Source: Candidatus Babeliales bacterium | Lineage (GTDB): Bacteria; Babelota; Babeliae; Babelales; Chromulinivoraceae | Reading direction: 5' to 3' | DNA length: 64,000 bases | Assembly (NCBI GenBank): GCA_041660205.1 | Contig: JBAZWT010000003.1 | Location: 7,948-71,947 of the forward strand | Part shown: in pieces, positions 45,250-57,928 of the stretch | Layout: every line of letters starts with the position of its first letter | How positions within the stretch are numbered: position 1 is the first letter of the stretch | Notes under the pieces: model-generated | Database searches by the model: none | Told to the model about the DNA's origin: nothing | The model's input: only the letters and a program-made list of their open reading frames with translations | Program-made: the position numbers and the translations under genes

Positions 45250-47822
45250 CTACGTAAGTTTCATATATTTTTTTAAATATTGGCCAGTATAACTTCCCTG
45301 CACTTGGGCCACATATTCAGGCGTTCCTTGAGCAACAATAGTTCCACCCTCAGATCCACCATCTGGACCCATATCGATAATAAAATCAGCAACTTTAAGC
45401 ACATCAAGGTTATGTTCAATAACAATAATTGAATTACCTTTATCGATTAATCGATTAAGGACTGTAAGCAATTTCACAATATCATGCGTATGCAGACCAG
45501 TTGTAGGTTCATCTAAAACGTAGAGCGTATTTTGACCACGCTTTGCAAGTTCATTAACTAATTTTATTCGCTGAGCTTCGCCGCCCGAAAGAGTGGTAGC
45601 GCATTGGCCTAATTTTACATAATCAAGACCAACATCGCACAAAAGCTGCAAGCGTTTGGCTAGTAAGCTATGCGCCTTAAAAAACTCTAAAGCTTCAAGC
45701 GCTGTCATATCAAGCACATCGGCAATATTTTTTCCTTTGTACAAAATCTGCAACGTTTCAGTGCTATAACGTCTTCCGTGGCAAACTTTACAAGTCATGA
45801 CAACGTCAGGTAGAAAATGCATGGAAACGGTTATAATTCCATCACCATGACATTTATAGCAGCGACCTTTGTTGACGTTAAAACTAAACTGTCCGACGTC
45901 GTAGCCGCGAATTTTGCTGTCTGGCAAACTTGCAAAAAGTTCTCGGATTCCATTGAAAATTCCAATGTAGGTTGCAGGATTTGAACGCGATGTTCTTCCG
46001 ATCGGACTTTGATCAATTTGCACCATATGCTCAAGATGCTCAATACCATCAATGCGTTGCTTATCAAAGATTTTCCATTTTAAATAAGAGTCTAATTCTT
46101 TATGCAGCGTTGGAACTAACTCTTCAAAAATAAGTGAACTTTTTCCTGATCCTGACACTCCAGAAACTGCACAAAGCACATGTAACGGAAATGAAACACT
46201 GACATCTTGTAAGTTATTTTTGGTTGCATGTTTTAATGTTAGAAATTTTTCAGTTGTTCGACGTTTAGTCGGAACTTTAATTTCAAGCTTTCCAGAAAGA
46301 TATTTTCCCGTCAGTGATGCTGAATTATTTTCCAATTCTTGCGGAGTTCCTACAGCAGTAACCATACCACCATGCACACCAGCTGCTGGACCCATATCGA
46401 TAACGTAGTCGGCAATGCGAATGGTATCAAGATCATGCTCAACAACGACAACCGTATTTCCCAAATCTTTTAAGGATTTTAATGTCTCAATCAATCGATC
46501 GTTATCACGTTGATGTAGTCCGATGCTTGGCTCATCAAGAATGTACAAGACACCACTTAAAGCACAGCCCACTTGCTTGGCCAAACGAATTCTCTGCCCT
46601 TCTCCACCTGAAAGCGTACGCGCAGTACGATTAAGCGAAAGGTACGACAAGCCAACATTGACCAAAAACTGTAAACGCTGACATGATTCGAGTAAAATAG
46701 TATGAGCAATTTCTGACTCAAATTCTGATAATTTTAAATTTTGCAAAAAAGATACTGCCTGATCAATAGACAGCTCACCAATTTCAAAAATATTTTTTCC
46801 ACCGATAGTTACCGACAATGCTTGTTTTGAAAGACGCTGTCCTTGACATAGATGACACGGTTTAACCTGGCGACCCATGTATAAATAATAGCCTTCATCT
46901 TCTTGCTCATGCTCAACACCAAGACCGTCACATGCACTGCATGCACCGATCGGAGAGTTAAATGAGAAAAAGCGTGGTTCAAGTTCAGGAAAAGCAACTT
47001 GGCAACCTAAGCACATCCGCTTTGATGAATACAGCGTACTCTGTCCATCCACTTGAAGTTTGCACAAACCATCAGCAAAATCGAAACTTTTCTGAACTGC
47101 TTCTTGGATGCGAGACAAACAATCATCATCTTGATCAATGGTAATACTATCAAGAAGAACATCGATTGAATGTTTATAACTTTTTTTCAGACCTAGCTCT
47201 TCGATTTGATCAACATGAGAAATTTTATGCAATTGACCGTCAATGACAAAACGATAAAAACCTTTTGCTAAAAAGTCTGCTAACTCATGCTTAAATTCAC
47301 CTTTGCGTTCTTGAACAACAGGAGCAACGATGGTAACAACTTTTTGCCCGTACGCCTCAAGAGCGTACTGTGCGATTTGACTTGCACTATAAGCTCTAAT
47401 TTCTTTAAAACACTCAGTACAATGCGGGATACCGATGCGAGCATACAAAATGCGCAAATAATCATAGAGCTCAGTAATCGTTCCTACTGTTGAGCGAGGA
47501 TTGTGACCTACTGTTTTTTGTTCTATTGCAATAGCTGACACAAACCATCAATGCGGTCAAAATCTGGTTTTTTTGCAATTCCTAAAAATTGACGGGCATA
47601 GGATGAAAGAGATTCCATGTATCGGCGCTTACCTTCAACAAATAAAACATCGAGAGCAAGCGAGCTTTTACCAGATCCAGAAGGACCTGTAATAACGACT
47701 AAAGAATCTTTAGGAATGGAAACATTAATATTTTTTAAATTGTGCTCACGAGCACCTATAACACGAATTTCACTTTTCAAGACTAGCCCTTCTAAGAATA
47801 TATACTTCATAAAAGCAAGCAT
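45250..47822 (-). pseudogene. uvrA: Excinuclease ABC subunit UvrA, split by a 1-nt frameshift near 47537 (or a sequencing error)
   Basis: The 99-aa ORF ([34 protein letters not shown]...DRIDGL) and the 763-aa ORF ([20 protein letters not shown]...) are contiguous UvrA sequence in different frames. Adding one C to tgtcagct would give GLCPAIAIEQK. The likely true start is TTG 47780 or ATG 47810. Confidence 0.85.
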
Positions 47823-49341: not shown

Positions 49342-49443
49342 AAAATTCAAAAATCTTTGATAAGTCATTAAAAAATCAACCTAAGACAATGTCAAAGTTG
49401 TCAATAGGAAACACAAAATCGCATCTACAGCGATTTTGCATGT

Positions 49444-49519
49444 CGGGGCGTAGCGCAATTGGTAGCGCACTCGCTTTGGGAGCGAGGGGTTGTGAGTTCA
49501 AGTCTCGCCGCCCCGACCA
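49444..49519 (+). tRNA. tRNA-Pro (anticodon UGG), copy 1, CCA encoded
   Basis: Hand-folded. Acceptor CGGGGCG/CGCCCCG, anticodon stem CTCGC/GCGAG with loop TTTGGGA, T arm GTGAG-TTCAAGT-CTCGC. 76 nt. Confidence 0.9.
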
Positions 49520-49608
49520 CTTGTTTCAGCATGAAGCAAGTGGTCGGTAAACCGATTTTTCAAAATGATTCAAATGGTCGGAAGCACTTATACTCTAAGA
49601 GATAACAA

Positions 49609-50436
49609 ATGTTTGCTTTTACCAAATTAACCAACCATGGATCATCGCATCCTATCCAAGCACGAATAGCTATTTTTTTATATGAACTCATACAAAAAAC
49701 AGACCTCACAACTATACAAAAAGATAGCCTCTCCAAGCTTTCGTATGATTTAGCCCAAGATTTAATTGAAGCAGAAAAGTACGGCTTAAACTTACTGAAC
49801 GATATAAAAAGAATCAATCATGACTGGCTAGAGAAAAATAATGATTTTCTCAAAAATCAACCTCTTACTTCATATCAATCTCTAACCTCTCCCAAAGACA
49901 TTCTAATTTTTTTAAAGAATGCAAAATCATCATTAAGAAAAGTTGGAACAATTATCGGCATAATTTTTGAAAAGGACCGAGAGGCTGCTCTTGATAAAAA
50001 GACAACCAACAAACACCCTTGGTATCAAGCCTACAAAAAGGGTAACTTTCAAGAGATTCTAAATGATCTCAAAAAACAATTAAAAGCAGACCTAAATCAC
50101 CCATTGCCTAAAATAATTCAAGATTATAGCAATTGGTTAGAATTCATTAGTTTTTTTCGTGATGAAGATGAACATCCAAAGACTTTCGACGATTTCATCC
50201 AAAATTATAAAATAACGCGTTCAAATGATTTCTATACGCTCGCAAAACCGCAATTTCAAGATGGAACAGATGTCGAATTGTTTTTAGAAAAATCACTACG
50301 GTACTTGCTCTTGTTTTCAGAAGAAATATGTATACTCTCTCTTTTAGAAAAAACTGATAGCCTATACCAATTATTGGAAATCGCAGAAAACGATCGCGAC
50401 AAGGCGTGTCCAAAAAAATTTAAATTTGCTATCTAA
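49609..50436 (+). CDS. Hypothetical all-helical cytoplasmic protein with an R-x4-H motif (candidate HEPN/Abi-like)
   Basis: 275 aa with no signal peptide. FISFFRDEDEHPKTF contains RDEDEH. No other motif recognised. Confidence 0.4.
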   Translation: MFAFTKLTNHGSSHPIQARIAIFLYELIQKTDLTTIQKDSLSKLSYDLAQDLIEAEKYGLNLLNDIKRINHDWLEKNNDFLKNQPLTSYQSLTSPKDILIFLKNAKSSLRKVGTIIGIIFEKDREAALDKKTTNKHPWYQAYKKGNFQEILNDLKKQLKADLNHPLPKIIQDYSNWLEFISFFRDEDEHPKTFDDFIQNYKITRSNDFYTLAKPQFQDGTDVELFLEKSLRYLLLFSEEICILSLLEKTDSLYQLLEIAENDRDKACPKKFKFAI

Positions 50437-50446
50437 AATACGCAAA

Positions 50447-50719
50447 TTAACTCATAATTCCCTTTTTCAATAAATCCGCAAAACAAGCCCTAAACCAGGC
50501 TGCCACTTTTGTGACTATTGAGTAAGAACTATTCATGCGTTTGCGATATGTGATTTTTAATGCTCCCGAAACAGGCTCCGCCATTATACCCAAAGGCTCT
50601 ACCCTAAAAAACCGCCCTTGCTTGTTTTTGTATAACTCAAAAGAATCTATAGATTGCAGATTTGAACATAATTTTCTTGAAACATGCTGCTTTTTCTCCC
50701 AATAAACAGACCAATTCAT
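50447..50719 (-). CDS. Small hypothetical protein
   Basis: Start at ATG 50719, 4 nt after GGAGGG. 90 aa. Convergent with 49609-50436. No family recognised. Confidence 0.35.
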   Translation of the reverse strand: MNWSVYWEKKQHVSRKLCSNLQSIDSFELYKNKQGRFFRVEPLGIMAEPVSGALKITYRKRMNSSYSIVTKVAAWFRACFADLLKKGIMS

Positions 50720-51067
50720 AGAGCCCTCCATAACAATCGAAATAGATAAACAAATCGCTCCCAAGACATAGCGTCCAATCTTATATTACAATAATATATT
50801 TATTTTTTATAAAACAGCTCTCTCTGCAGAGTCTTAATTAAATGATTGGGGGGCTGTTGCACGAAGTTCTTCATGAATTAATATAATAGTGGGGATTAGT
50901 AGTTACTTATTGCCTATTTAAAGAGATTTTGATTTATTATGTTTAAAAAATTTTTCAAATTTGTGTTATGGATGCACGGCATCGCATTTCCGCCATATGC
51001 TTTGTATTGGTTACTATACAGAAAGTAAATTATCAATATGTCCTGTAGGGGGACTTTAGGAGGCATT

Positions 51068-51385
51068 ATGAAAAAAGTATCATCCAATGATTCAAAAAAC
51101 ATGTTGTATATTGCGGCATCGATAGGGATCATCATTTTTGCTGGCTCAAAATTTTTGAATGAGTATTCAAGTTTTCAAAAAAAACGAACCATGGATAATG
51201 ATTATAGGCAAAAATTAAAATGGCAGCATGAATGTGCAAAGGAACATAAAACCGATGTTATGTGGGAATATACCCAACGGCAAATCAAGGAAATAAGGTC
51301 AAAAATGCTTCATGATGGATATAGTCATTCTGCTATAGATAAATTAGACACAGACACGTTTCTAGGAGTTCATAATTGTATTTAG
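51068..51385 (+). CDS. Small single-pass membrane protein, array member 1
   Basis: Start at ATG 51068 after TAGGAGG. TM segment MLYIAASIGIIIFAG. C-terminal motif KMLHDGYSHSAIDKL is shared with members 2 and 3. Confidence 0.55.
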   Translation: MKKVSSNDSKNMLYIAASIGIIIFAGSKFLNEYSSFQKKRTMDNDYRQKLKWQHECAKEHKTDVMWEYTQRQIKEIRSKMLHDGYSHSAIDKLDTDTFLGVHNCI

Positions 51386-51424
51386 CAAAGTCATAACTTA
51401 GTATCATCGCACAGGAGGTTTCAC

Positions 51425-51832
51425 ATGGAACAACGATCAATCACTAAACCAAAAAACATACTATACATAGCTATTGCCTTAGGCATAGGCACATTAATTT
51501 GCATAAAATTATATAAAACATTCGAAGAGATAAAGCTCCATAAGAATAAAGTCCGCGATAGAATCGGAATGGATTTATTTTATGAGAATAAAATAGAATA
51601 TTTTTATTTACTAGGGAAGGAGCATCCTGATATCACTTATGATAATTTACAAGTTCCCATCAACGAATGGAAATCAAGAATGCTTTCTGATGGGTATAAA
51701 TACTATGAAATTGACAAAATAGCTCAATCCGCTCGAGAAAATGCTTCAATAAGATATAAAGAAAAAAAACAATTTCATCAAACTTGTGACGCCTTAGTAA
51801 CTTATTTAGAAAAACTAGACAATGAAGAATAA
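51425..51832 (+). CDS. Small single-pass membrane protein, array member 2
   Basis: AGGAGG Shine-Dalgarno. MEQRSITKPKNILYIAIALGIGTLICIKLYKT. Motif RMLSDGYKYYEIDKI. Confidence 0.6.
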   Translation: MEQRSITKPKNILYIAIALGIGTLICIKLYKTFEEIKLHKNKVRDRIGMDLFYENKIEYFYLLGKEHPDITYDNLQVPINEWKSRMLSDGYKYYEIDKIAQSARENASIRYKEKKQFHQTCDALVTYLEKLDNEE

Positions 51833-51856
51833 ACTATAATCTATAGGGGGTTTCAC

Positions 51857-52282
51857 ATGGAACAAAAATCATACAATCAACCAAAAAAGATATTATATCT
51901 ATCTATTTCTTTGGCAATAGTCACTTTCTCTGGCATAAAGCTATATAAAACATGGCAAGAAATACAAACGAAAAAAGAAGTAGATCAAAAAAGAAAATAT
52001 GCTCATTCAGCATATGAACATAAAAAACAACAACAGGAAAATAAAAATCGAATGGACAATTTCTATCTAAACGAATTCAAAAAAAAGAGCGAAAACTTTT
52101 GGATAGCTACATGCATGAATCCTGATTATGCACCTACTTATCTAAGAGAAATAGAGGCTGATGAAGCAAAGATTGAAAATAAAATGTATCAAGACGGTTA
52201 TTCTAATATGGATATTGGAATAATTAAAAACAAAGCTAGACAATTGGCTACAGAAGTTTTGAAGAATTTTAAAAAAACATAA
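51857..52282 (+). CDS. Small single-pass membrane protein, array member 3
   Basis: GGGGG Shine-Dalgarno. MEQKSYNQPKKILYLSISLAIVTFSGIKLYKT. Motif KMYQDGYSNMDIGII. Confidence 0.6.
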   Translation: MEQKSYNQPKKILYLSISLAIVTFSGIKLYKTWQEIQTKKEVDQKRKYAHSAYEHKKQQQENKNRMDNFYLNEFKKKSENFWIATCMNPDYAPTYLREIEADEAKIENKMYQDGYSNMDIGIIKNKARQLATEVLKNFKKT

Positions 52283-52312
52283 TAAAAAATACTTAATCAA
52301 AAGGGATCAAAA

Positions 52313-52588
52313 ATGAATAGAGCAACAATCTACTCATTCATAGTTCTTTTATTAGGGCTACAATTTCAGGCATTAGACGCTAAAAAGAAAAGCTTAAGCT
52401 TTAATCAACCATCAAAGCCAGTAAAAACAACAAAGAAAAAACCTTATGTAAAAAAAACTATCCACGAAGGCTTAGGCAAAAGAAGTAAAAAAAATGGAAT
52501 GATAAAAACCAAAAGTGTTTCAAGCCATTTTAAACGCAGCTCTAAAGGAGGAAACACACTGGTCAATGCTTATTCCAGAAGTAAATAA
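52313..52588 (+). CDS. Small exported, extremely basic (Lys-rich) protein inside the array
   Basis: Signal peptide MNRATIYSFIVLLLGLQFQALDA followed by a Lys/Ser-rich region of about 68 aa. Confidence 0.5.
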   Translation: MNRATIYSFIVLLLGLQFQALDAKKKSLSFNQPSKPVKTTKKKPYVKKTIHEGLGKRSKKNGMIKTKSVSSHFKRSSKGGNTLVNAYSRSK

Positions 52589-52610
52589 AATATAATCCAT
52601 AGGAGCCTTC

Positions 52611-53123
52611 ATGGAACAAAAATCATATCAACAACCAAATCAAAAAATGATTAAACAATTTTTATTTATTTTAACAATTTTATCATTCCATGGTGCTTTT
52701 CATGCTTTTCATGAGATATTGCACGATAAATCGATTAAGACTACAAAAGCTTATATTAGTAGTTATACACTAGGCACAAGTTTTACTAATTCACCTATCA
52801 CCCGTAGATGGATGAATAGAAATATACTAAAAACAATGAAGCGTAGAGCCATAAAAGGTCTATTATGGCAAGGCGACAAAGTAATAGTACGCTTTTATAA
52901 CAATCCAACCCAAGAAGAGTATGACATTTATGTTAAATGCCTTAGCACTCAATTATCAGGGATTATGGAGTATAAAATTACATTCACGGATTATATTCTT
53001 ATTAGCTTGAAACATGGGTCTTTTACGCGCGATCAGTTTCAAATTTTTTTAGATAAAATTAACGCATCGATTGAAGATAATGGCGATAAAGAATTAAATG
53101 TTCTAAATCAAGAACATTTTTAA
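52611..53123 (+). CDS. Single-pass membrane protein, array member 4 (shared N-terminus, different C-terminal domain)
   Basis: AGGAG Shine-Dalgarno. MEQKSYQQPNQKMIKQFLFILTILSF. The start region is conserved at the DNA level with members 2 and 3. Confidence 0.55.
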   Translation: MEQKSYQQPNQKMIKQFLFILTILSFHGAFHAFHEILHDKSIKTTKAYISSYTLGTSFTNSPITRRWMNRNILKTMKRRAIKGLLWQGDKVIVRFYNNPTQEEYDIYVKCLSTQLSGIMEYKITFTDYILISLKHGSFTRDQFQIFLDKINASIEDNGDKELNVLNQEHF

Positions 53124-53443
53124 AATAACCCTTATTGCCTTCATAACAAAAACATCGTATTATCAATATAAATCCACAACTTTTTTGGAATATTAACATA
53201 TTTGCAACTTAGACCGCAGTATTTGTGTTAATTGCTCTTTTAATTTTTTCCACTGAAAAGTTCGAAGTGCACACATTGACTGCGACCATTTTTAAAAGAC
53301 TTTTCTTTAACAAGTGCCTTCTTGTCCTGTGCATAGGTGAATACGGTGATTCACTATCCAGGCTGGCACAAAATACCAGACAAAATAATTCTAATCTTAA
53401 CAATTTAAAGTCCATCTATCTCTGCACATGAAAGGGAACTCTC

Positions 53444-53911
53444 ATGACACATATTTGGTTCATCCTAGCCCTATTCTGGCTCTTTTTAGAAATGGGCAAT
53501 CCAGGATTGTTTTATTTTCTTTCCATCGCATTTGGATCTTTTATGGCTTTTGTAGCAAGTCTATACAACCTTGATATTGCAGCACAATGCACCATTTGTC
53601 TTACAGGATCTCTAGGGATGCTTTTTTTATTGCAGACCTATGTGAAAAAAAGTCAAAAAAATAAATCATCCAAAATGTATCAATCAAACATGTACCAACT
53701 CATAGGCAAAACTATAGAAATTACAGAAATAACATCTGCAACTTCTGGTTACGGAAAAATTAACGGAGAAACATGGTCCGTTAAATCACAAGGCAATAAA
53801 AGCTTAACCGTAGGGATGCTTGCAATAATTACAGGCGTTCAAGGTTGTCATTTGCAAATCAATAGTTTAGCAAACGATAGTTTATCAAACGATAGTTTAA
53901 TCAACGATTAA
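53444..53911 (+). CDS. NfeD-family membrane protein
   Basis: N-terminal TM helices plus a C-terminal OB-like LIGKTIEITEITSATSGYGKINGETWSVKS. Directly upstream of the SPFH gene, the classical NfeD-SPFH operon arrangement. Confidence 0.75.
   Translation: MTHIWFILALFWLFLEMGNPGLFYFLSIAFGSFMAFVASLYNLDIAAQCTICLTGSLGMLFLLQTYVKKSQKNKSSKMYQSNMYQLIGKTIEITEITSATSGYGKINGETWSVKSQGNKSLTVGMLAIITGVQGCHLQINSLANDSLSNDSLIND
53861..53908. repeat. Three tandem 15-bp units at the 3' end of the nfeD-like gene
   Basis: aatagtttagcaaac / gatagtttatcaaac / gatagtttaatcaac, encoding NSLAN-DSLSN-DSLIN-D*. Confidence 0.8.
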
Positions 53912-53931
53912 TCCAAGAAAGGGATTTTATT

Positions 53932-54918
53932 ATGTTGTTATTTGAAATTGGAATATTTTTTATTCTACCACTCATAGTGCTCGCAGCACTTATTGCAAAA
54001 AGCACAATACTTGTCAAACAAGCAGAAACCGTGATTATTGAACGACTGGGTAAATTCGATCGAATTTTAACTCCAGGACTTCATTTCATTGTTCCTTTTA
54101 TAGAACAACCCCGTTACTGCCTATGGACGTTTCTTTATTTTTCACCCCATAAACGATATGAAACGTTTTCTAGATATTTTTATCGCATTGATTTAAGAGA
54201 ATCAGTCTATGAATTCCCAAAGCAAAACGTGATCACAAAAGATAACGTTATGATGGAAATTAATGCACTTTTATACTATCAAATCACTGACGTTAAAGCT
54301 GCTGTGTATGAAGTATCAAACCTACCAGAAGCAATTGAAAAAATAACTCAAACGACACTACGTAACGTTATCGGTTCTTTAGACCTTGATGAATCACTTA
54401 TCTCTCGTGATCAAATTAACACGAAACTTCGCATCATCCTTGATGAAGCAACTGATAAATGGGGCGTGAAAATTAACCGCGTTGAGCTGCAAGAAGTAAA
54501 TCCACCGCGCGACATTCAAATTGCCATGGAAAAACAAATGCGCGCAGAAAGGGATCGTCGAGCAATTATTTTAGAAGCTGAAGGCGCAAAACGTTCTGCT
54601 ATTTTAAATGCTGAAGGTGAAAAAGAATCAGAAATTTTAACAGCTCAAGGTCAGGCAGAAGCAAAAATTATTGCAGCCGAAGCTGAAGCATGGTCTCGAT
54701 TAAAATTTGCTGAAGCTGAAGCAAAATCACTTGAAGTCATGAAAGCAGCAATTCCTGGTATAGATCCTGTGCAATATTTAACTGCATTAAAATATATCCA
54801 AGCTTTGCCAGAAATGACAAAAGGCGCGAATAATAAATTGATTATAGTTCCTTACGAAGCTTCAGGACTTGCAAACTCTGTAGCATCAATTAAAAAAATA
54901 TTTGAAGAAGTAAAATAA
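53932..54918 (+). CDS. SPFH/band-7 (stomatin/prohibitin-like) protein
   Basis: N-terminal TM, then ILVKQAETVIIERLGKF, NVITKDNVMMEINALLYYQITD and WGVKINRVELQEVNPP, followed by an Ala/Glu-rich coiled coil. Confidence 0.85.
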   Translation: MLLFEIGIFFILPLIVLAALIAKSTILVKQAETVIIERLGKFDRILTPGLHFIVPFIEQPRYCLWTFLYFSPHKRYETFSRYFYRIDLRESVYEFPKQNVITKDNVMMEINALLYYQITDVKAAVYEVSNLPEAIEKITQTTLRNVIGSLDLDESLISRDQINTKLRIILDEATDKWGVKINRVELQEVNPPRDIQIAMEKQMRAERDRRAIILEAEGAKRSAILNAEGEKESEILTAQGQAEAKIIAAEAEAWSRLKFAEAEAKSLEVMKAAIPGIDPVQYLTALKYIQALPEMTKGANNKLIIVPYEASGLANSVASIKKIFEEVK

Positions 54919-55719: not shown

Positions 55720-55863
55720 GCTTTCGCCAAGGCTTCAGCTGGCACGGCCATCACCGAATGAATTCAAAACTTTAATCAAAAAAATAAATTAAATCTTACA
55801 AGCGAAAGCTGCCCGCCAAAGCTTTAGCGGCGGCTGGGCAATAAAAATAAAAAGTCATTAAGT

Positions 55864-56106
55864 ATGTATTACGTTTATCTTCTTAGATCAATTAATTTTC
55901 CAGACAAAAAATATATCGGATTTACTGATAATTTTTCAGAACGATTACTAACTCATAATTCAGGCAACTCTCCTCATACCAAATTACATAAACCCTGGAA
56001 AACAGAATTGTTAATTGGTTTTGACGATAAAATGAAAGCTGCTGCTTTTGAAAAATATTTAAAATCTGGCGCAGGTCGAGCATTTGCAAAAAAAAGATTT
56101 TGGTAA
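55864..56106 (+). CDS. Stand-alone GIY-YIG nuclease-domain protein (UPF0213/YhbQ-like)
   Basis: MYYVYLLRSINFPDKKYIGFTDNFSERLLTHNSG...PW...AAAFEKYLKSGAGRAF gives the GIY...YIG...R...H/N...E pattern. 80 aa. Confidence 0.8.
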   Translation: MYYVYLLRSINFPDKKYIGFTDNFSERLLTHNSGNSPHTKLHKPWKTELLIGFDDKMKAAAFEKYLKSGAGRAFAKKRFW

Positions 56107-56315
56107 AGCTTTCCTTCAGCATGAAACAAGTGGTCGACAGGCCGACCTTTCAAAATGATTTTTCTTTAATCAGTGCTATTCGCACAAAATATTAAAACTT
56201 AGCTCCATAAACAAATCCTTAAAATAAAACCCCCTACCCCTTTTGCAAAGGGCAATTTTAACAATTAAAATGTTATAGTCTCATATTTTTAATGTTTTGT
56301 TTCTTAGGGGGAACT

Positions 56316-56939
56316 GTGAACAAATTGTATATTTTCACATCTGCGCTATTGTTACTCAATGGATCAACGGCCCATTCAATCGATATTTTTCATGAAATTT
56401 CTCAAGGAAATCTATCTAGAAACACTCAAAGCTGGTTAAAGAGTCCTGAAAGTAAAACTATGGTAAATGACTATGGACAGACCATTTTACATCAAGCGGT
56501 GTTGACAGGAAACATGCGTGTCATAAAACAAATAGCAATCTCTAACGTTGATATTAACGCTCTGGATAAAGATGGAAAAACCGCTTTAGATTATGCTGTT
56601 GATTATGGCTATAAAAGTGCCATCCACTATTTGCTCAAAAAAAATGCTTCTGTTACCACACAGGAAAACGCTTTTTTCATTAAAAAACTGCTCCAGCCAA
56701 TATCAATTATCAATAAAGTAATAAAAACAATATTTATTATAGGGGCAGTTGCCTTCACTTTTGGGATCACACTCCTACTTCTTAGCATCCCGCTAGCATC
56801 ATTAGGAGGCTTATTGGCATTTATACAAGTCGGTCTTCCAGGGCTAGGTATCATAGCGATAAGCGCTCCTTTCCTATCATTGACTAATTATGCCAATATA
56901 CCAATGAACAAATACTACACAATGAAAATTACTGCATAA
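56316..56939 (+). CDS. Ankyrin-repeat protein with signal-like N-terminus and C-terminal TM helices
   Basis: GTG 56316 after GGGGGA. GQTILHQAVLTGNMRVIKQIAISNVDINALDKDGKTALDYAVDYGYKSAIHYLLKKNASV. Two hydrophobic C-terminal segments. Confidence 0.75.
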   Translation: MNKLYIFTSALLLLNGSTAHSIDIFHEISQGNLSRNTQSWLKSPESKTMVNDYGQTILHQAVLTGNMRVIKQIAISNVDINALDKDGKTALDYAVDYGYKSAIHYLLKKNASVTTQENAFFIKKLLQPISIINKVIKTIFIIGAVAFTFGITLLLLSIPLASLGGLLAFIQVGLPGLGIIAISAPFLSLTNYANIPMNKYYTMKITA

Positions 56940-56991
56940 AACGCTTAACAAGTGACTGTTCCAGATAAACTTAATTTTATATTTCAAGATC

Positions 56992-57032
56992 AAAAAAGCT
57001 GGTTGTTATTATTTAACAACCAGCTTTTTTGT
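56992..57032. terminator. Bidirectional rho-independent terminator
   Basis: Stem aaaagctggttgtta / taacaaccagctttt, between convergent genes. Confidence 0.8.
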
Positions 57033-57073
57033 TGAGCTCTTTTTTACACAAACCAAATGGACGCTGTAATCAT

Positions 57074-57604
57074 CTAGGGCAAAGTTGTAACGTAAACATC
57101 GCAAATACGTTCTGTTTTATCGACTTCCATCTTATCAAAATCATCAAAACCAGGATCTCCTGGTTCAAAAAACTTTATTTCTTCTATGCCTATGGTGCAT
57201 TCTCTAACAGCTGCACGTTGAGCAGCGTCAAGAAAATTTTGCAAAATGGGATCCATTGATTTTAAAATGTTTAACTTACAGTTACGAAACGGCAATTTAA
57301 TATTACTGCCTGATAAAATATCAAAGCATAACTGTAATGACATATCCTCAACCCAAATGTATAACGTAACAGGTCCTTTATATTTATTTTTTTTCAATTG
57401 CATAGATTTATAATGCTTGAGTTCTGCAAAAAAGTTTTGCAAATCTTGCAAGGTAACTTTTGCAACAAAGTCATAGTCGAACATAATACCCCAGGTATTA
57501 TAATCAAGTTCTTCCTTTTGCCTAGAAGCTTTTCCAGTTATCAATATATCTTCTTCTAAAAGCTCTTTAAAATCTGAGTGTTTTGTAATTTTTATATAGT
57601 TCAT
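57074..57604 (-). CDS. Hypothetical cytoplasmic protein
   Basis: 176 aa with no signal peptide. Its ATG overlaps (ATGA) the stop of a start-less 44-codon upstream frame. Confidence 0.5.
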   Translation of the reverse strand: MNYIKITKHSDFKELLEEDILITGKASRQKEELDYNTWGIMFDYDFVAKVTLQDLQNFFAELKHYKSMQLKKNKYKGPVTLYIWVEDMSLQLCFDILSGSNIKLPFRNCKLNILKSMDPILQNFLDAAQRAAVRECTIGIEEIKFFEPGDPGFDDFDKMEVDKTERICDVYVTTLP

Positions 57605-57928
57605 GATAAAAATTTAATCTCCGAATATGGTATAAATTTGCCAACTGAACCTTTGTGTTTACCAAGAATTTTTTGTCCTAAAGTATCAGCATCAAAAGTC
57701 CATTCAAATCCTTTTGAAAAATAAGTATTTCTACTTCAAATCATAACAAACCCACTAAAATATCACCACAGATTCCTAACAGGTTTCTATTATTTTCAAA
57801 GTAAGATGATTAAAAAAACTAGATATACTTATTTTTAATTTTTTGCAGATTGCACTTTGCAGAACTTTGGCAAGATGGTACTCTAGACTTCTATAGAGTA
57901 GTTTTTCATAGCACAATCAACGATACCA

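What the first reader, a model, noticed from the sequence alone, without database searches (positions are those of the whole stretch)
50765..53123. Tightly packed operon-like array of diverged small single-pass membrane protein paralogs with a conserved start region and a DGY motif
Five same-strand ORFs (51068, 51425, 51857, 52313, 52611) are separated by only 39, 24, 30 and 22 nt. Each has a strong Shine-Dalgarno. Three of them share nearly the same ribosome-binding and start DNA (AGGrGs-TTCAC-ATGGAACAAmrATCA), giving MEQ(K/R)S..(Q/K)P(K/N). All four paralogs have one TM helix about 12 residues in. Members 1-3 share a C-terminal motif (K/R)M(L/Y)xDGY(S/K)xxxID. Member 4 keeps the N-terminus but carries an unrelated C-terminal domain. 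A secreted, extremely Lys-rich 91-aa protein interrupts the array. I recognise no family. A conserved N-terminal module joined to diversified C-terminal parts is the pattern seen in polymorphic immunity, exclusion or effector cassettes. This one sits in the tRNA-Pro-bracketed segment next to a candidate HEPN protein.
Basis: partly seen in the sequence, partly recalled or inferred. Interest (0 to 1): 0.6.

Follow-up and report, generated by a model that had tools for sequence, protein, structure and literature searches.

The report
Mobile-element membrane protein triplet with partner peptide
Three tandem genes for an undescribed small membrane-anchored protein family sit beside their usual partner gene, a lysine-rich exported peptide, in the integrase-less wreck of a mobile element in an intracellular Dependentiae bacterium; the pair recurs on related elements but its function is unknown.

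Summary
The sequence observation holds. Five same-strand ORFs lie 22-39 nt apart, each with a Shine-Dalgarno, and three share start-region DNA.

Members 1-3 belong to a real protein family absent from Pfam, NCBIfam, PHROGs and PADLOC. An exhaustive HMMER search found about 29 relatives. The family has an N-terminal membrane anchor and the motifs MDxFY and M..DGY. AlphaFold gives a confident three-helix model (pLDDT 95) with no structural match.

Member 4 is not a paralog. It is an ORFan that shares only about 25 nt of leader and its first 9 codons with member 3.

The Lys-rich protein does not interrupt the array. It belongs to a second family, found in 17 of 261 Dependentiae genomes. A DGY gene lies immediately next to it in six independent loci.

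Both families ride on small elements with a large serine integrase whose gene end overlaps a tRNA 3' end. The window holds a 3.9-kb integrase-less remnant of such an element, inserted right after tRNA-Pro. The closest relative lacks the insert. The tRNA-Pro bracket itself is ancestral.

I found no link between the array and the 275-aa "HEPN" neighbour.

Function is unproven. My best guess is an exported, envelope-level two-component accessory module, immunity- or exclusion-like. A role in host interaction is the main rival.

The parts
49444..49519 (+). tRNA-Pro(UGG) copy 1. Its 3' end is the left boundary of the variable segment.
   Evidence: ARAGORN and Rfam. Homology to relative L009 stops at 49519.
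49520..53432 (.). 3.9-kb segment absent from the closest relative (150 bp there). It is an integrase-less remnant of a mobile element.
   Evidence: blastn against L009. GC is 0.30-0.31 against about 0.36 for the window. No serine-recombinase remnant was found.
49609..50436 (+). It is a neighbour and shows no linkage to the array.
   Evidence: No Pfam or PHROG hit. It has one homolog in 261 genomes (G010, 34% identity) in an unrelated context.
50447..50764 (-). Truncated N-terminal remnant of a ~200-aa zinc-ribbon protein that is a core gene of the serine-integrase elements.
   Evidence: It matches residues 3-55 of the ~200-aa proteins of L100, L110, L106, L103, L111, L123 and L142 and lacks their CxxC...CxxC part.
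50765..51067 (+). Non-coding leader of the array, with one sigma-70-like site at 50763-50792.
   Evidence: Consensus scan only, and the region has fewer such sites than its shuffles. No Rfam match.
51068..51385 (+). DGY-family member 1 (105 aa), the most diverged.
   Evidence: HMM E = 1e-23; alignments.
51425..51832 (+). DGY-family member 2 (135 aa): membrane anchor, MDLFY, MLSDGY.
   Evidence: AlphaFold2 pLDDT 94.9 with helices 9-66, 72-88 and 93-134.
51857..52282 (+). DGY-family member 3 (141 aa). Its closest relative is the metagenomic protein P0016.
   Evidence: tree support 99/84.
52313..52588 (+). Lys-rich exported protein (91 aa), the conserved partner of DGY genes and a core gene of the elements.
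   Evidence: Found in 17 of 261 Dependentiae genomes and 22 metagenome loci. Conserved C-terminal motif GxGKxSKxNGxIKTKxxxGYFKPSNGYKFVNPYARSK. It lies next to DGY genes and serine recombinases.
52611..53123 (+). 170-aa ORFan ('member 4'). It shares only the leader and first 9 codons with member 3.
   Evidence: No homolog in the 5.8-billion-protein collection or in 261 genomes. hhalign probability 0.13%; shuffling test.
53444..54918 (+). NfeD and SPFH genes, the ancestral right flank. Not part of the element.
   Evidence: Pfam NfeD. They are syntenic and 82-94% identical in L009 and also present in L010-L012.

Best explanation
The array is accessory cargo of a decayed mobile element in a ~1-Mb Dependentiae (Babeliales) genome.

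Members 1-3 are three anciently diverged paralogs of an undescribed family of ~100-140-aa proteins. Each has a signal-anchor-like N-terminus followed by a compact three-helix domain. That domain is held together by the MDxFY and M..DGY motifs, and it most likely faces the periplasm.

The gene downstream of member 3 encodes the family's recurrent partner. This is a small, extremely basic peptide with a Sec-type signal and a conserved Gly/Tyr/Lys C-terminal motif.

Together they form a two-gene envelope module. The module normally sits at the integrase-proximal end of small integrative elements. Those elements carry a large serine integrase that overlaps a tRNA 3' end, an RHH protein, a DnaG-like primase, a D5-type helicase and a zinc-ribbon protein.

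In this window an integrase-less 3.9-kb remnant lies directly 3' of tRNA-Pro. It holds a zinc-ribbon gene fragment, three DGY genes, the Lys-rich gene and two orphans.

The leader and first nine codons have been homogenised among members 2, 3 and the unrelated 170-aa gene.

Shown: the family exists, the gene pairing recurs, the context is a mobile element, and the segment is an insertion.

Inferred: both products are exported, and they act together.

Guess (about 30%): the membrane-anchored DGY protein protects the carrier cell from the cationic peptide or otherwise handles it. That would be an immunity- or exclusion-type function, and three paralogs would broaden its specificity.
For: Family:
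- Exhaustive HMMER found 35 hits, about 29 of them true relatives of 100-185 aa.
- In the 31-sequence alignment M, D and G are invariant and two Y are nearly so.
- AlphaFold2 gives pLDDT 94.9 and pTM 0.75.
- No match in Pfam, NCBIfam, PADLOC, PHROGs, PDB sequences, or Foldseek against PDB and BFVD.

Pairing:
- A DGY gene lies immediately upstream of the Lys-rich gene in the window (30 nt), L125 (13 nt), L137 (43 nt) and L132 (28 nt).
- In L145 a Sel1-like anchored protein with a DGY-like tail overlaps the Lys-rich gene.
- In L111 the Lys-rich gene is followed after 9 nt by a short DGY gene.
- In L119 and L080 the two genes lie within 1 kb.

Element:
- The Lys-rich gene sits 0-2 genes from a large serine recombinase (Resolvase + Recombinase + Zn_ribbon_recom).
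- That recombinase gene overlaps a convergent tRNA 3' end by 12-15 nt in most of the roughly 11 loci and by more in two.
- The elements also carry a primase and a D5-like helicase.

Export:
- Lipobox variants occur in both families: G188 DGY has LSGC, and L111 Lys-rich has ISGC.
- Family N-termini are short, with AxA-type ends.

Insertion:
- L009, with 94% identical SPFH, has 150 bp where the window has 3.9 kb.
- The zinc-ribbon gene is truncated.

Old paralogs:
- Members 1-3 are not a clade. M3 groups with P0016 at 99/84 support.
Against: - There are no expression or activity data.
- Topology is not settled. Basic residues are more frequent after the anchor than before it (103 against 56). 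The Lys-rich mature end starts with K/R, which disfavours Sec export in model bacteria.
- DGY soluble domains are about neutral (mean net charge +1.3), so nothing suggests simple electrostatic binding of a polycation.
- Five DGY loci (L077, L079, L122, L123, L124) have no Lys-rich gene nearby, and most Lys-rich loci have no DGY gene. The partnership is therefore frequent, not obligate.
- Elsewhere the family is usually single copy, so the triplet has no precedent to explain it.
- The remnant lacks an integrase. Its origin by integration at tRNA-Pro is inferred, not shown.
Confidence: 0.6

Rival explanations
1. Host-interaction module. The pair belongs to an integrase-proximal 'eukaryotic association' region. 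The Lys-rich peptide, with its NLS-like K runs, would be an effector aimed at the protist host. The DGY protein would be its envelope anchor or export helper.
For: The organism belongs to Dependentiae/Babeliales, known from the literature as intracellular parasites of protists (my own knowledge). DGY and Lys-rich genes neighbour ankyrin-repeat proteins (L077, L079, L111, L112, L123). They also neighbour an IBR/RING E3-ligase-like protein directly after the pair in L125, and an SP-RING-like protein near P0028.
Against: No secretion route beyond Sec is evident. The Lys-rich C-terminal motif matches no known effector family or structure. The AlphaFold2 model is largely extended (pTM 0.26). Ankyrin genes are common throughout these genomes, so proximity is weak evidence.
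Confidence: 0.22
2. Spanin-like trans-envelope pair. DGY would act like an i-spanin (inner-membrane anchor plus helical periplasmic domain). The small exported peptide would act like an o-spanin, used for envelope disruption or fusion when the element leaves or enters cells.
For: The gene order is anchored helical protein followed by a small exported protein, with 9-43 nt gaps or an overlap. One Lys-rich homolog carries a lipobox. One DGY context includes a terminase-small-subunit-like GP3_package gene.
Against: The window's peptide and nearly all its homologs have no Cys and so cannot be lipoproteins. No holin, endolysin or capsid genes appear in any locus. The Lys-rich family is absent from IMG/VR. 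The model is a compact bundle, not an extended coiled coil.
Confidence: 0.06
3. Decaying junk. The array consists of non-functional relics of a dead element, kept only because deletion has not yet removed them.
For: The integrase is missing, the zinc-ribbon gene is truncated, and two neighbouring ORFs are orphans.
Against: All three DGY genes and the Lys-rich gene are intact. They keep every invariant family residue and have strong ribosome-binding sites. This is a 1-Mb streamlined genome.
Confidence: 0.12

Closest known systems
Prophage and plasmid accessory ('moron') envelope proteins that mediate superinfection or entry exclusion (e.g. T4 Imm/Sp, P22 SieA, T5 Llp, phi80 Cor, F TraS/TraT); from my own knowledge
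   Same: They are small, fast-evolving, membrane-anchored or lipoprotein products. They are encoded near the integrase or attachment end of a mobile element and have no homologs in core genomes.
   Different: No sequence or fold relationship was found. The conserved pairing with a polycationic exported peptide is not a feature of those systems. No exclusion phenotype is known here.
Sec-dependent class II bacteriocins with adjacent membrane-associated immunity proteins; from my own knowledge
   Same: A signal peptide precedes a small, strongly cationic, Gly-rich mature peptide. Next to it lie genes for small helical membrane-associated proteins, here in several copies.
   Different: The host is a diderm intracellular bacterium. 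There is no YGNGV or other known bacteriocin motif and no EntA_Immun-type hit. The peptide is more conserved than its putative immunity partner. No activity has been tested.
Two-component spanins (lambda Rz/Rz1)
   Same: The gene order and architecture match: an N-terminally anchored helical periplasmic protein followed by a small exported protein.
   Different: The partner has no lipobox Cys in nearly all members, there is no lysis cassette, and the predicted fold is compact.
Integrative elements with large serine recombinases (SCC/Ccr elements, phage LSR integrases; Wolbachia phage WO with its integrase-adjacent eukaryotic association module)
   Same: A large serine recombinase sits at one end, and variable accessory genes, including ankyrin proteins, lie next to it.
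   Different: In these Dependentiae elements the integrase gene overlaps a tRNA 3' end, and the element carries a primase and helicase but no capsid or conjugation genes. The window's copy has lost the integrase.

Membership tests
DGY family (unnamed, defined here by alignment A4) | N-terminal hydrophobic anchor within the first ~30 residues | tested here: met
   Kyte-Doolittle maxima of 1.7-2.25 at residues 11-14 in members 1-3.
DGY family (unnamed, defined here by alignment A4) | The motifs (K/R)xxMDxFY and ExxMxxDGYxxxEI, in that order | tested here: met
   Members 1-3 score E = 1e-23 to 1e-31 against the family HMM. Invariant M/D/G are retained. Member 4 fails: hhalign probability 0.13%.
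   The C-terminal DGY region is the most conserved part across 31 sequences. Only member 4 differs, and it shares just 9 codons.
   No consistent Pfam, NCBIfam or PADLOC hits for any array protein.
Two-component spanin | i-spanin: N-terminal transmembrane domain plus helical periplasmic domain | tested here: inconclusive
   The architecture fits, but the model is a compact three-helix bundle and the topology is inferred only.
Two-component spanin | o-spanin: outer-membrane lipoprotein with a lipobox Cys | tested here: not met
   The window's Lys-rich protein has no Cys. Only the L111 homolog has a lipobox.
Two-component spanin | Location in a lysis cassette with holin and endolysin | tested here: not met
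   None was seen in any of the roughly 40 loci examined.
Sec-dependent bacteriocin plus immunity pair | Small cationic peptide with a cleavable signal | tested here: met
   The N-terminus is signal-like and ends in ALDA. The mature 68 aa hold 21 K/R and 1 D/E. The xA|K/R junction is conserved in homologs. This rests on sequence only.
Sec-dependent bacteriocin plus immunity pair | Membership of a known bacteriocin or immunity family | tested here: not met
   No Pfam hits for either family.
Sec-dependent bacteriocin plus immunity pair | Killing activity and cognate protection | not testable with these tools
   This needs expression assays.
tRNA-targeting large-serine-integrase elements of Dependentiae | Large serine recombinase gene whose 3' end overlaps a tRNA 3' end | tested here: not met
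   This is met in relatives' loci. No recombinase or remnant lies in window 49520-53446, so I file the window's segment as a remnant, not an intact member.
tRNA-targeting large-serine-integrase elements of Dependentiae | Core accessory genes (Lys-rich protein, ~200-aa zinc-ribbon protein) and a position directly 3' of a tRNA | tested here: met
   The Lys-rich gene is intact and the zinc-ribbon gene is present as an N-terminal fragment. The segment starts at the last base of tRNA-Pro.

The most novel reading that the evidence does not exclude
The DGY / Lys-rich pair is a previously unrecognised peptide toxin-immunity (or exclusion) system. Small serine-integrase elements of intracellular Dependentiae would use it to compete inside a shared host cell. 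The window's three diverged DGY genes would be a stack of immunity specificities kept after the element died.
Probability: 0.2. Interest if true: 0.65.

Novelty: new variant of a known kind. Interest (0 to 1): 0.42.

Why it matters
Dependentiae are uncultured or barely cultured intracellular parasites of protists, and most of their accessory genes are unannotated. This work turns an orphan gene cluster into two defined protein families with profiles. It gives a confident fold for one of them and a reproducible gene pairing tied to a specific class of mobile element. That yields a concrete two-gene module that can be tested in E. coli for topology, interaction, toxicity and protection. It also gives markers (the Lys-rich motif and the DGY profile) for finding these elements and their remnants in metagenomes. 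If the module proves to be a competition or exclusion system, it would show how mobile elements fight inside bacteria that themselves live inside cells.

Tried and rejected
- The word-indexed homolog searches found almost nothing beyond the window's own proteins. Only the exhaustive HMMER search revealed the family.
- Its hits P0013, P0017 and P0032 are insect-type repeat proteins that match only 'DDGYRYK'. I rejected them as chance.
- POTRA_2 hits in 3 of 31 members (best E = 1.7e-4) are a local helix-GY motif resemblance in an all-helical protein. Rejected.
- Foldseek against PDB and BFVD gave no significant match.
- A search for a partial tRNA-Pro repeat as an att site inside the segment found only the two full genes.
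- No serine-recombinase relic lies in the segment.
- The idea that the tRNA-Pro pair bounds an island was rejected, because relatives share the pair with NfeD-SPFH between them.
- A functional link to NfeD/SPFH was rejected because the array is an insertion upstream of an ancestral operon.
- A link to the 275-aa protein was rejected.
- Electrostatic complementarity between DGY and the peptide was not found.
- Literature searches found no description of these families or elements.
Full report
**1. What is in the sequence**

They lie at 51068-51385, 51425-51832, 51857-52282, 52313-52588 and 52611-53123, all on the + strand, separated by 39, 24, 30 and 22 nt. Each has a purine-rich Shine-Dalgarno 5-9 nt before the ATG.

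The repeat finder recovers a 30-nt block around the start codon in four genes, at 70-90% identity. It also finds a 120-nt block shared by members 2 and 3 at 76%. Members 3 and 4 additionally share about 20 nt of leader (ATAATCnATAGG...), as one search shows.

No intrinsic terminator separates the genes, and no Rfam family other than the tRNAs is present. GC is 0.30-0.31 here against about 0.36 for the window.

**2. Three paralogs, not four**

Members 1-3 align with 29-39% identity. They share an anchor at residues about 11-30, then (K/R)..MDxFY and (K/R)M.xDGY.

Member 4 is different. Its similarity to member 3 is highly significant only when the first nine residues are included. Residues 10-45 give z = 1.9, and the C-terminal 125 residues give none. 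A profile comparison with the family gives probability 0.13%. It has no homolog in the 5.8-billion-protein collection or in 261 Dependentiae genomes.

Member 4 is therefore an ORFan that shares its translation-initiation region with the paralogs. The MEQ(K/R)S start is not found in the closest outside relatives: P0004 starts MNQLLF and P0016 starts MKIKEI. This sharing is thus a local event, either gene conversion or duplication of the 5' end within this array.

**3. The DGY family is real and undescribed**

Word-indexed searches found only the window's own proteins. An exhaustive HMMER search of 1.84 billion representatives found 35 hits. Three of these are insect repeat proteins that match only DDGYRYK, and I discarded them. 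The other 29, besides the window's own three, are 100-185-aa proteins with the same layout.

In the 31-sequence alignment, M, D and G of M..DGY are invariant. The Y of FY and the Y of DGY are nearly so.

AlphaFold2 with this alignment gives pLDDT 94.9 and pTM 0.75. A long helix (9-66) spans the anchor and a stalk. It is followed by helix 72-88, the DGY turn at 89-91, and helix 93-134. The conserved residues are therefore probably structural.

Nothing matches in any of these:
- Pfam, NCBIfam, PADLOC and PHROGs
- PDB sequences
- Foldseek against PDB (best E 0.95)
- Foldseek against BFVD (best E 0.14)

A tree shows that members 1-3 are not each other's closest relatives. M3 pairs with P0016 at 99/84 support, and M2 sits near P0004 and P0005. 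The three are therefore old lineages, not a recent local amplification.

**4. Organism and locus history**

The SPFH gene downstream finds Candidatus Dependentiae / Babeliales MAGs. The genome is 1.02 Mb in 17 contigs.

In the closest relative (L009, 94% SPFH identity) the gene order is:
- uvrA
- a secreted protein
- tRNA-His
- tRNA-Pro
- 150-180 bp of spacer
- NfeD
- SPFH
- a 155-aa protein
- tRNA-Pro

L010, L011 and L012 also have two tRNA-Pro copies around NfeD-SPFH. The tRNA-Pro bracket is therefore ancestral.

Homology with L009 stops at 49519 and resumes at about 53433. The 3.9 kb between those points is extra. The same site holds IS elements and other genes in L010, and a repeat protein in L011. 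It is thus a hot spot for insertions.

**5. The Lys-rich protein is the key to the context**

It belongs to a family present in 17 of 261 Dependentiae genomes and in 22 metagenome loci. The family has a signal-like N-terminus ending in xA, followed by K/R. Its strongly conserved C-terminal motif is GxGKxSKxNGxIKTKxxxGYFKPSNGYKFVNPYARSK. Its AlphaFold2 model is mostly extended, with one beta hairpin (pLDDT 75, pTM 0.26).

In locus after locus it lies 0-2 genes from a large serine recombinase (Resolvase + Recombinase + Zn_ribbon_recom). That recombinase gene's 3' end overlaps the 3' end of a convergent tRNA gene, by 12-15 nt in most loci and by more in L111 and L142. The loci are L080, L101-L104, L109-L112, L132 and L142.

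The same elements carry an RHH-like 60-aa protein, a DnaG-like primase, a DUF5906/D5-type helicase and a ~200-aa zinc-ribbon protein. No capsid, lysis or conjugation genes were seen, and the family is absent from IMG/VR.

The minus-strand ORF at 50447-50764 is the N-terminal fragment of that zinc-ribbon protein. The segment contains no recombinase relic. The genome has recombinase copies on other contigs, but they carry neither DGY nor Lys-rich genes.

I conclude that 49520-53432 is an integrase-less remnant of such an element. That it arrived by integration at tRNA-Pro is an inference. In G006, a species of the same genus, an intact element at tRNA-Glu has the same relative orientation: tRNA (+), recombinase (-), and further on the Lys-rich gene (+) followed by a small gene.

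**6. DGY and the Lys-rich gene form a recurrent pair**

Loci where the two genes are adjacent or close:

| Locus | Arrangement | Gap |
|---|---|---|
| Window | M3, then Lys-rich | 30 nt |
| L125 | Double-domain DGY, then Lys-rich | 13 nt |
| L137 | DGY, then Lys-rich | 43 nt |
| L132 | DGY, then Lys-rich | 28 nt |
| L145 | Anchored Sel1-like protein with a DGY-like tail (MPKDEYSSSEIELLGRQARSQA), then Lys-rich | overlaps |
| L111 | Lys-rich, then a short DGY gene | 9 nt |
| L119 and L080 | Both genes present | within 1 kb |

Five other DGY loci have no Lys-rich gene nearby, and most Lys-rich loci lack DGY. The link is therefore frequent but not obligate. Given how rare both families are, I judge this adjacency far beyond chance, though I did not compute an expected frequency.

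**7. Where the proteins probably act**

Both families have members with textbook lipoprotein signals:
- G188 DGY: MKRLLLFILPSLLILSGC|SS
- L111 Lys-rich: ...LLGISGC|AD

Many other members end their hydrophobic stretch with AxA-type sites. This points to export of both C-terminal parts.

There are counter-indications. Basic residues after the DGY anchor outnumber those before it. The Lys-rich mature end also starts with K/R. I put export of both at about 65-70%.

**8. Function**

Nothing tested here shows a function. The module is integrase-proximal cargo, surrounded by other envelope proteins and by eukaryote-like proteins: ankyrin, IBR/RING and SP-RING.

My preferred reading is an envelope-level two-component accessory module in which the anchored DGY protein handles or neutralises the cationic peptide. 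That would be an immunity- or exclusion-type role, at about 30% for this specific mechanism. A host-interaction role is the main rival, at about 22%.

The spanin analogy fails on the lipobox and on the lysis context. DGY domains are not acidic, so simple charge sequestration is not supported.

The 275-aa neighbour has a single homolog, in G010. That homolog keeps an Rx4H motif but lies in a locus without DGY or Lys-rich genes. No toxin-protection link to the array is indicated.

**9. Limits**

The taxonomic range outside Dependentiae was not measured. Notes from earlier agents of this scan on tRNA-targeting serine-integrase elements in Dependentiae and Patescibacteria agree with what I saw. 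Here I verified only the recombinase/tRNA overlap and the domain content.

**10. Verdict**

This is a new, well-defined but functionally uncharacterised gene pair on a poorly known class of mobile elements, present here as a remnant with an unusual triple set of the anchored partner. Interest is moderate.

Noticed in passing
L080, L101-L104, L109-L112, L132, L142 (e.g. L110 5553-7084): Large serine recombinase genes end 12-15 nt inside the 3' end of a convergent tRNA gene in most of these loci, and further inside in L111 and L142. The tRNAs are Asp, Ala, Glu, Arg and Asn. This is a consistent tRNA-end-targeting element design in Dependentiae.
   Followed up: partly
window 45250-47822 (-): uvrA is split into overlapping 763-aa and 99-aa ORFs near 47523-47541. 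The relative L009 has one intact 843-aa gene. This is either a frameshift or an assembly error.
   Followed up: partly
window 49609-50436: The 275-aa orphan has one homolog in 261 genomes (G010, 34% identity). Its R-x4-H motif (RDEDEH against RNEIEH) is conserved. The fold was not tested.
   Followed up: partly
window 55720-57833: A second variable site lies directly 3' of tRNA-Pro copy 2. The window has about 2.1 kb there, including a GIY-YIG gene at 55864-56106, against about 150 bp in L009. Similar small GIY-YIG genes sit next to tRNAs or recombinase remnants in L080, L100, L123 and L124.
   Followed up: no
L010 1258-7499; L011 6280-7523: The same tRNA-Pro to NfeD gap holds different cargo in relatives. 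L010 has IS-type transposases and HExxH-like membrane proteins. L011 has a repeat-rich secreted 231-aa protein.
   Followed up: no
L132 2547-2705 and 4029-4205: A DGY gene appears split. An anchor-only N-terminal ORF and a C-terminal DGY ORF lie 1.3 kb apart with other ORFs between them.
   Followed up: no
L125 2093-2749 (P0035): One family member carries two DGY domains in tandem behind a single anchor. It is followed by the Lys-rich gene and an IBR/RING E3-ligase-like gene. The contig also has ParA and a tyrosine integrase.
   Followed up: no
L077 9104-9718, L079 5039-5695, L133 3390-3992, L140 47-580, L146 1894-2487: A ~200-aa lipoprotein family (LGGC-type lipobox with a later hydrophobic segment) recurs next to DGY or Lys-rich genes and has no Pfam match.
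   Followed up: no
window 49404-49519 vs L009 9739-9854: The 40 nt upstream of the window's tRNA-Pro copy 1 matches the upstream of L009's copy 2 (99% over 116 nt), not its copy 1. This suggests exchange between the two tRNA-Pro copies.
   Followed up: no
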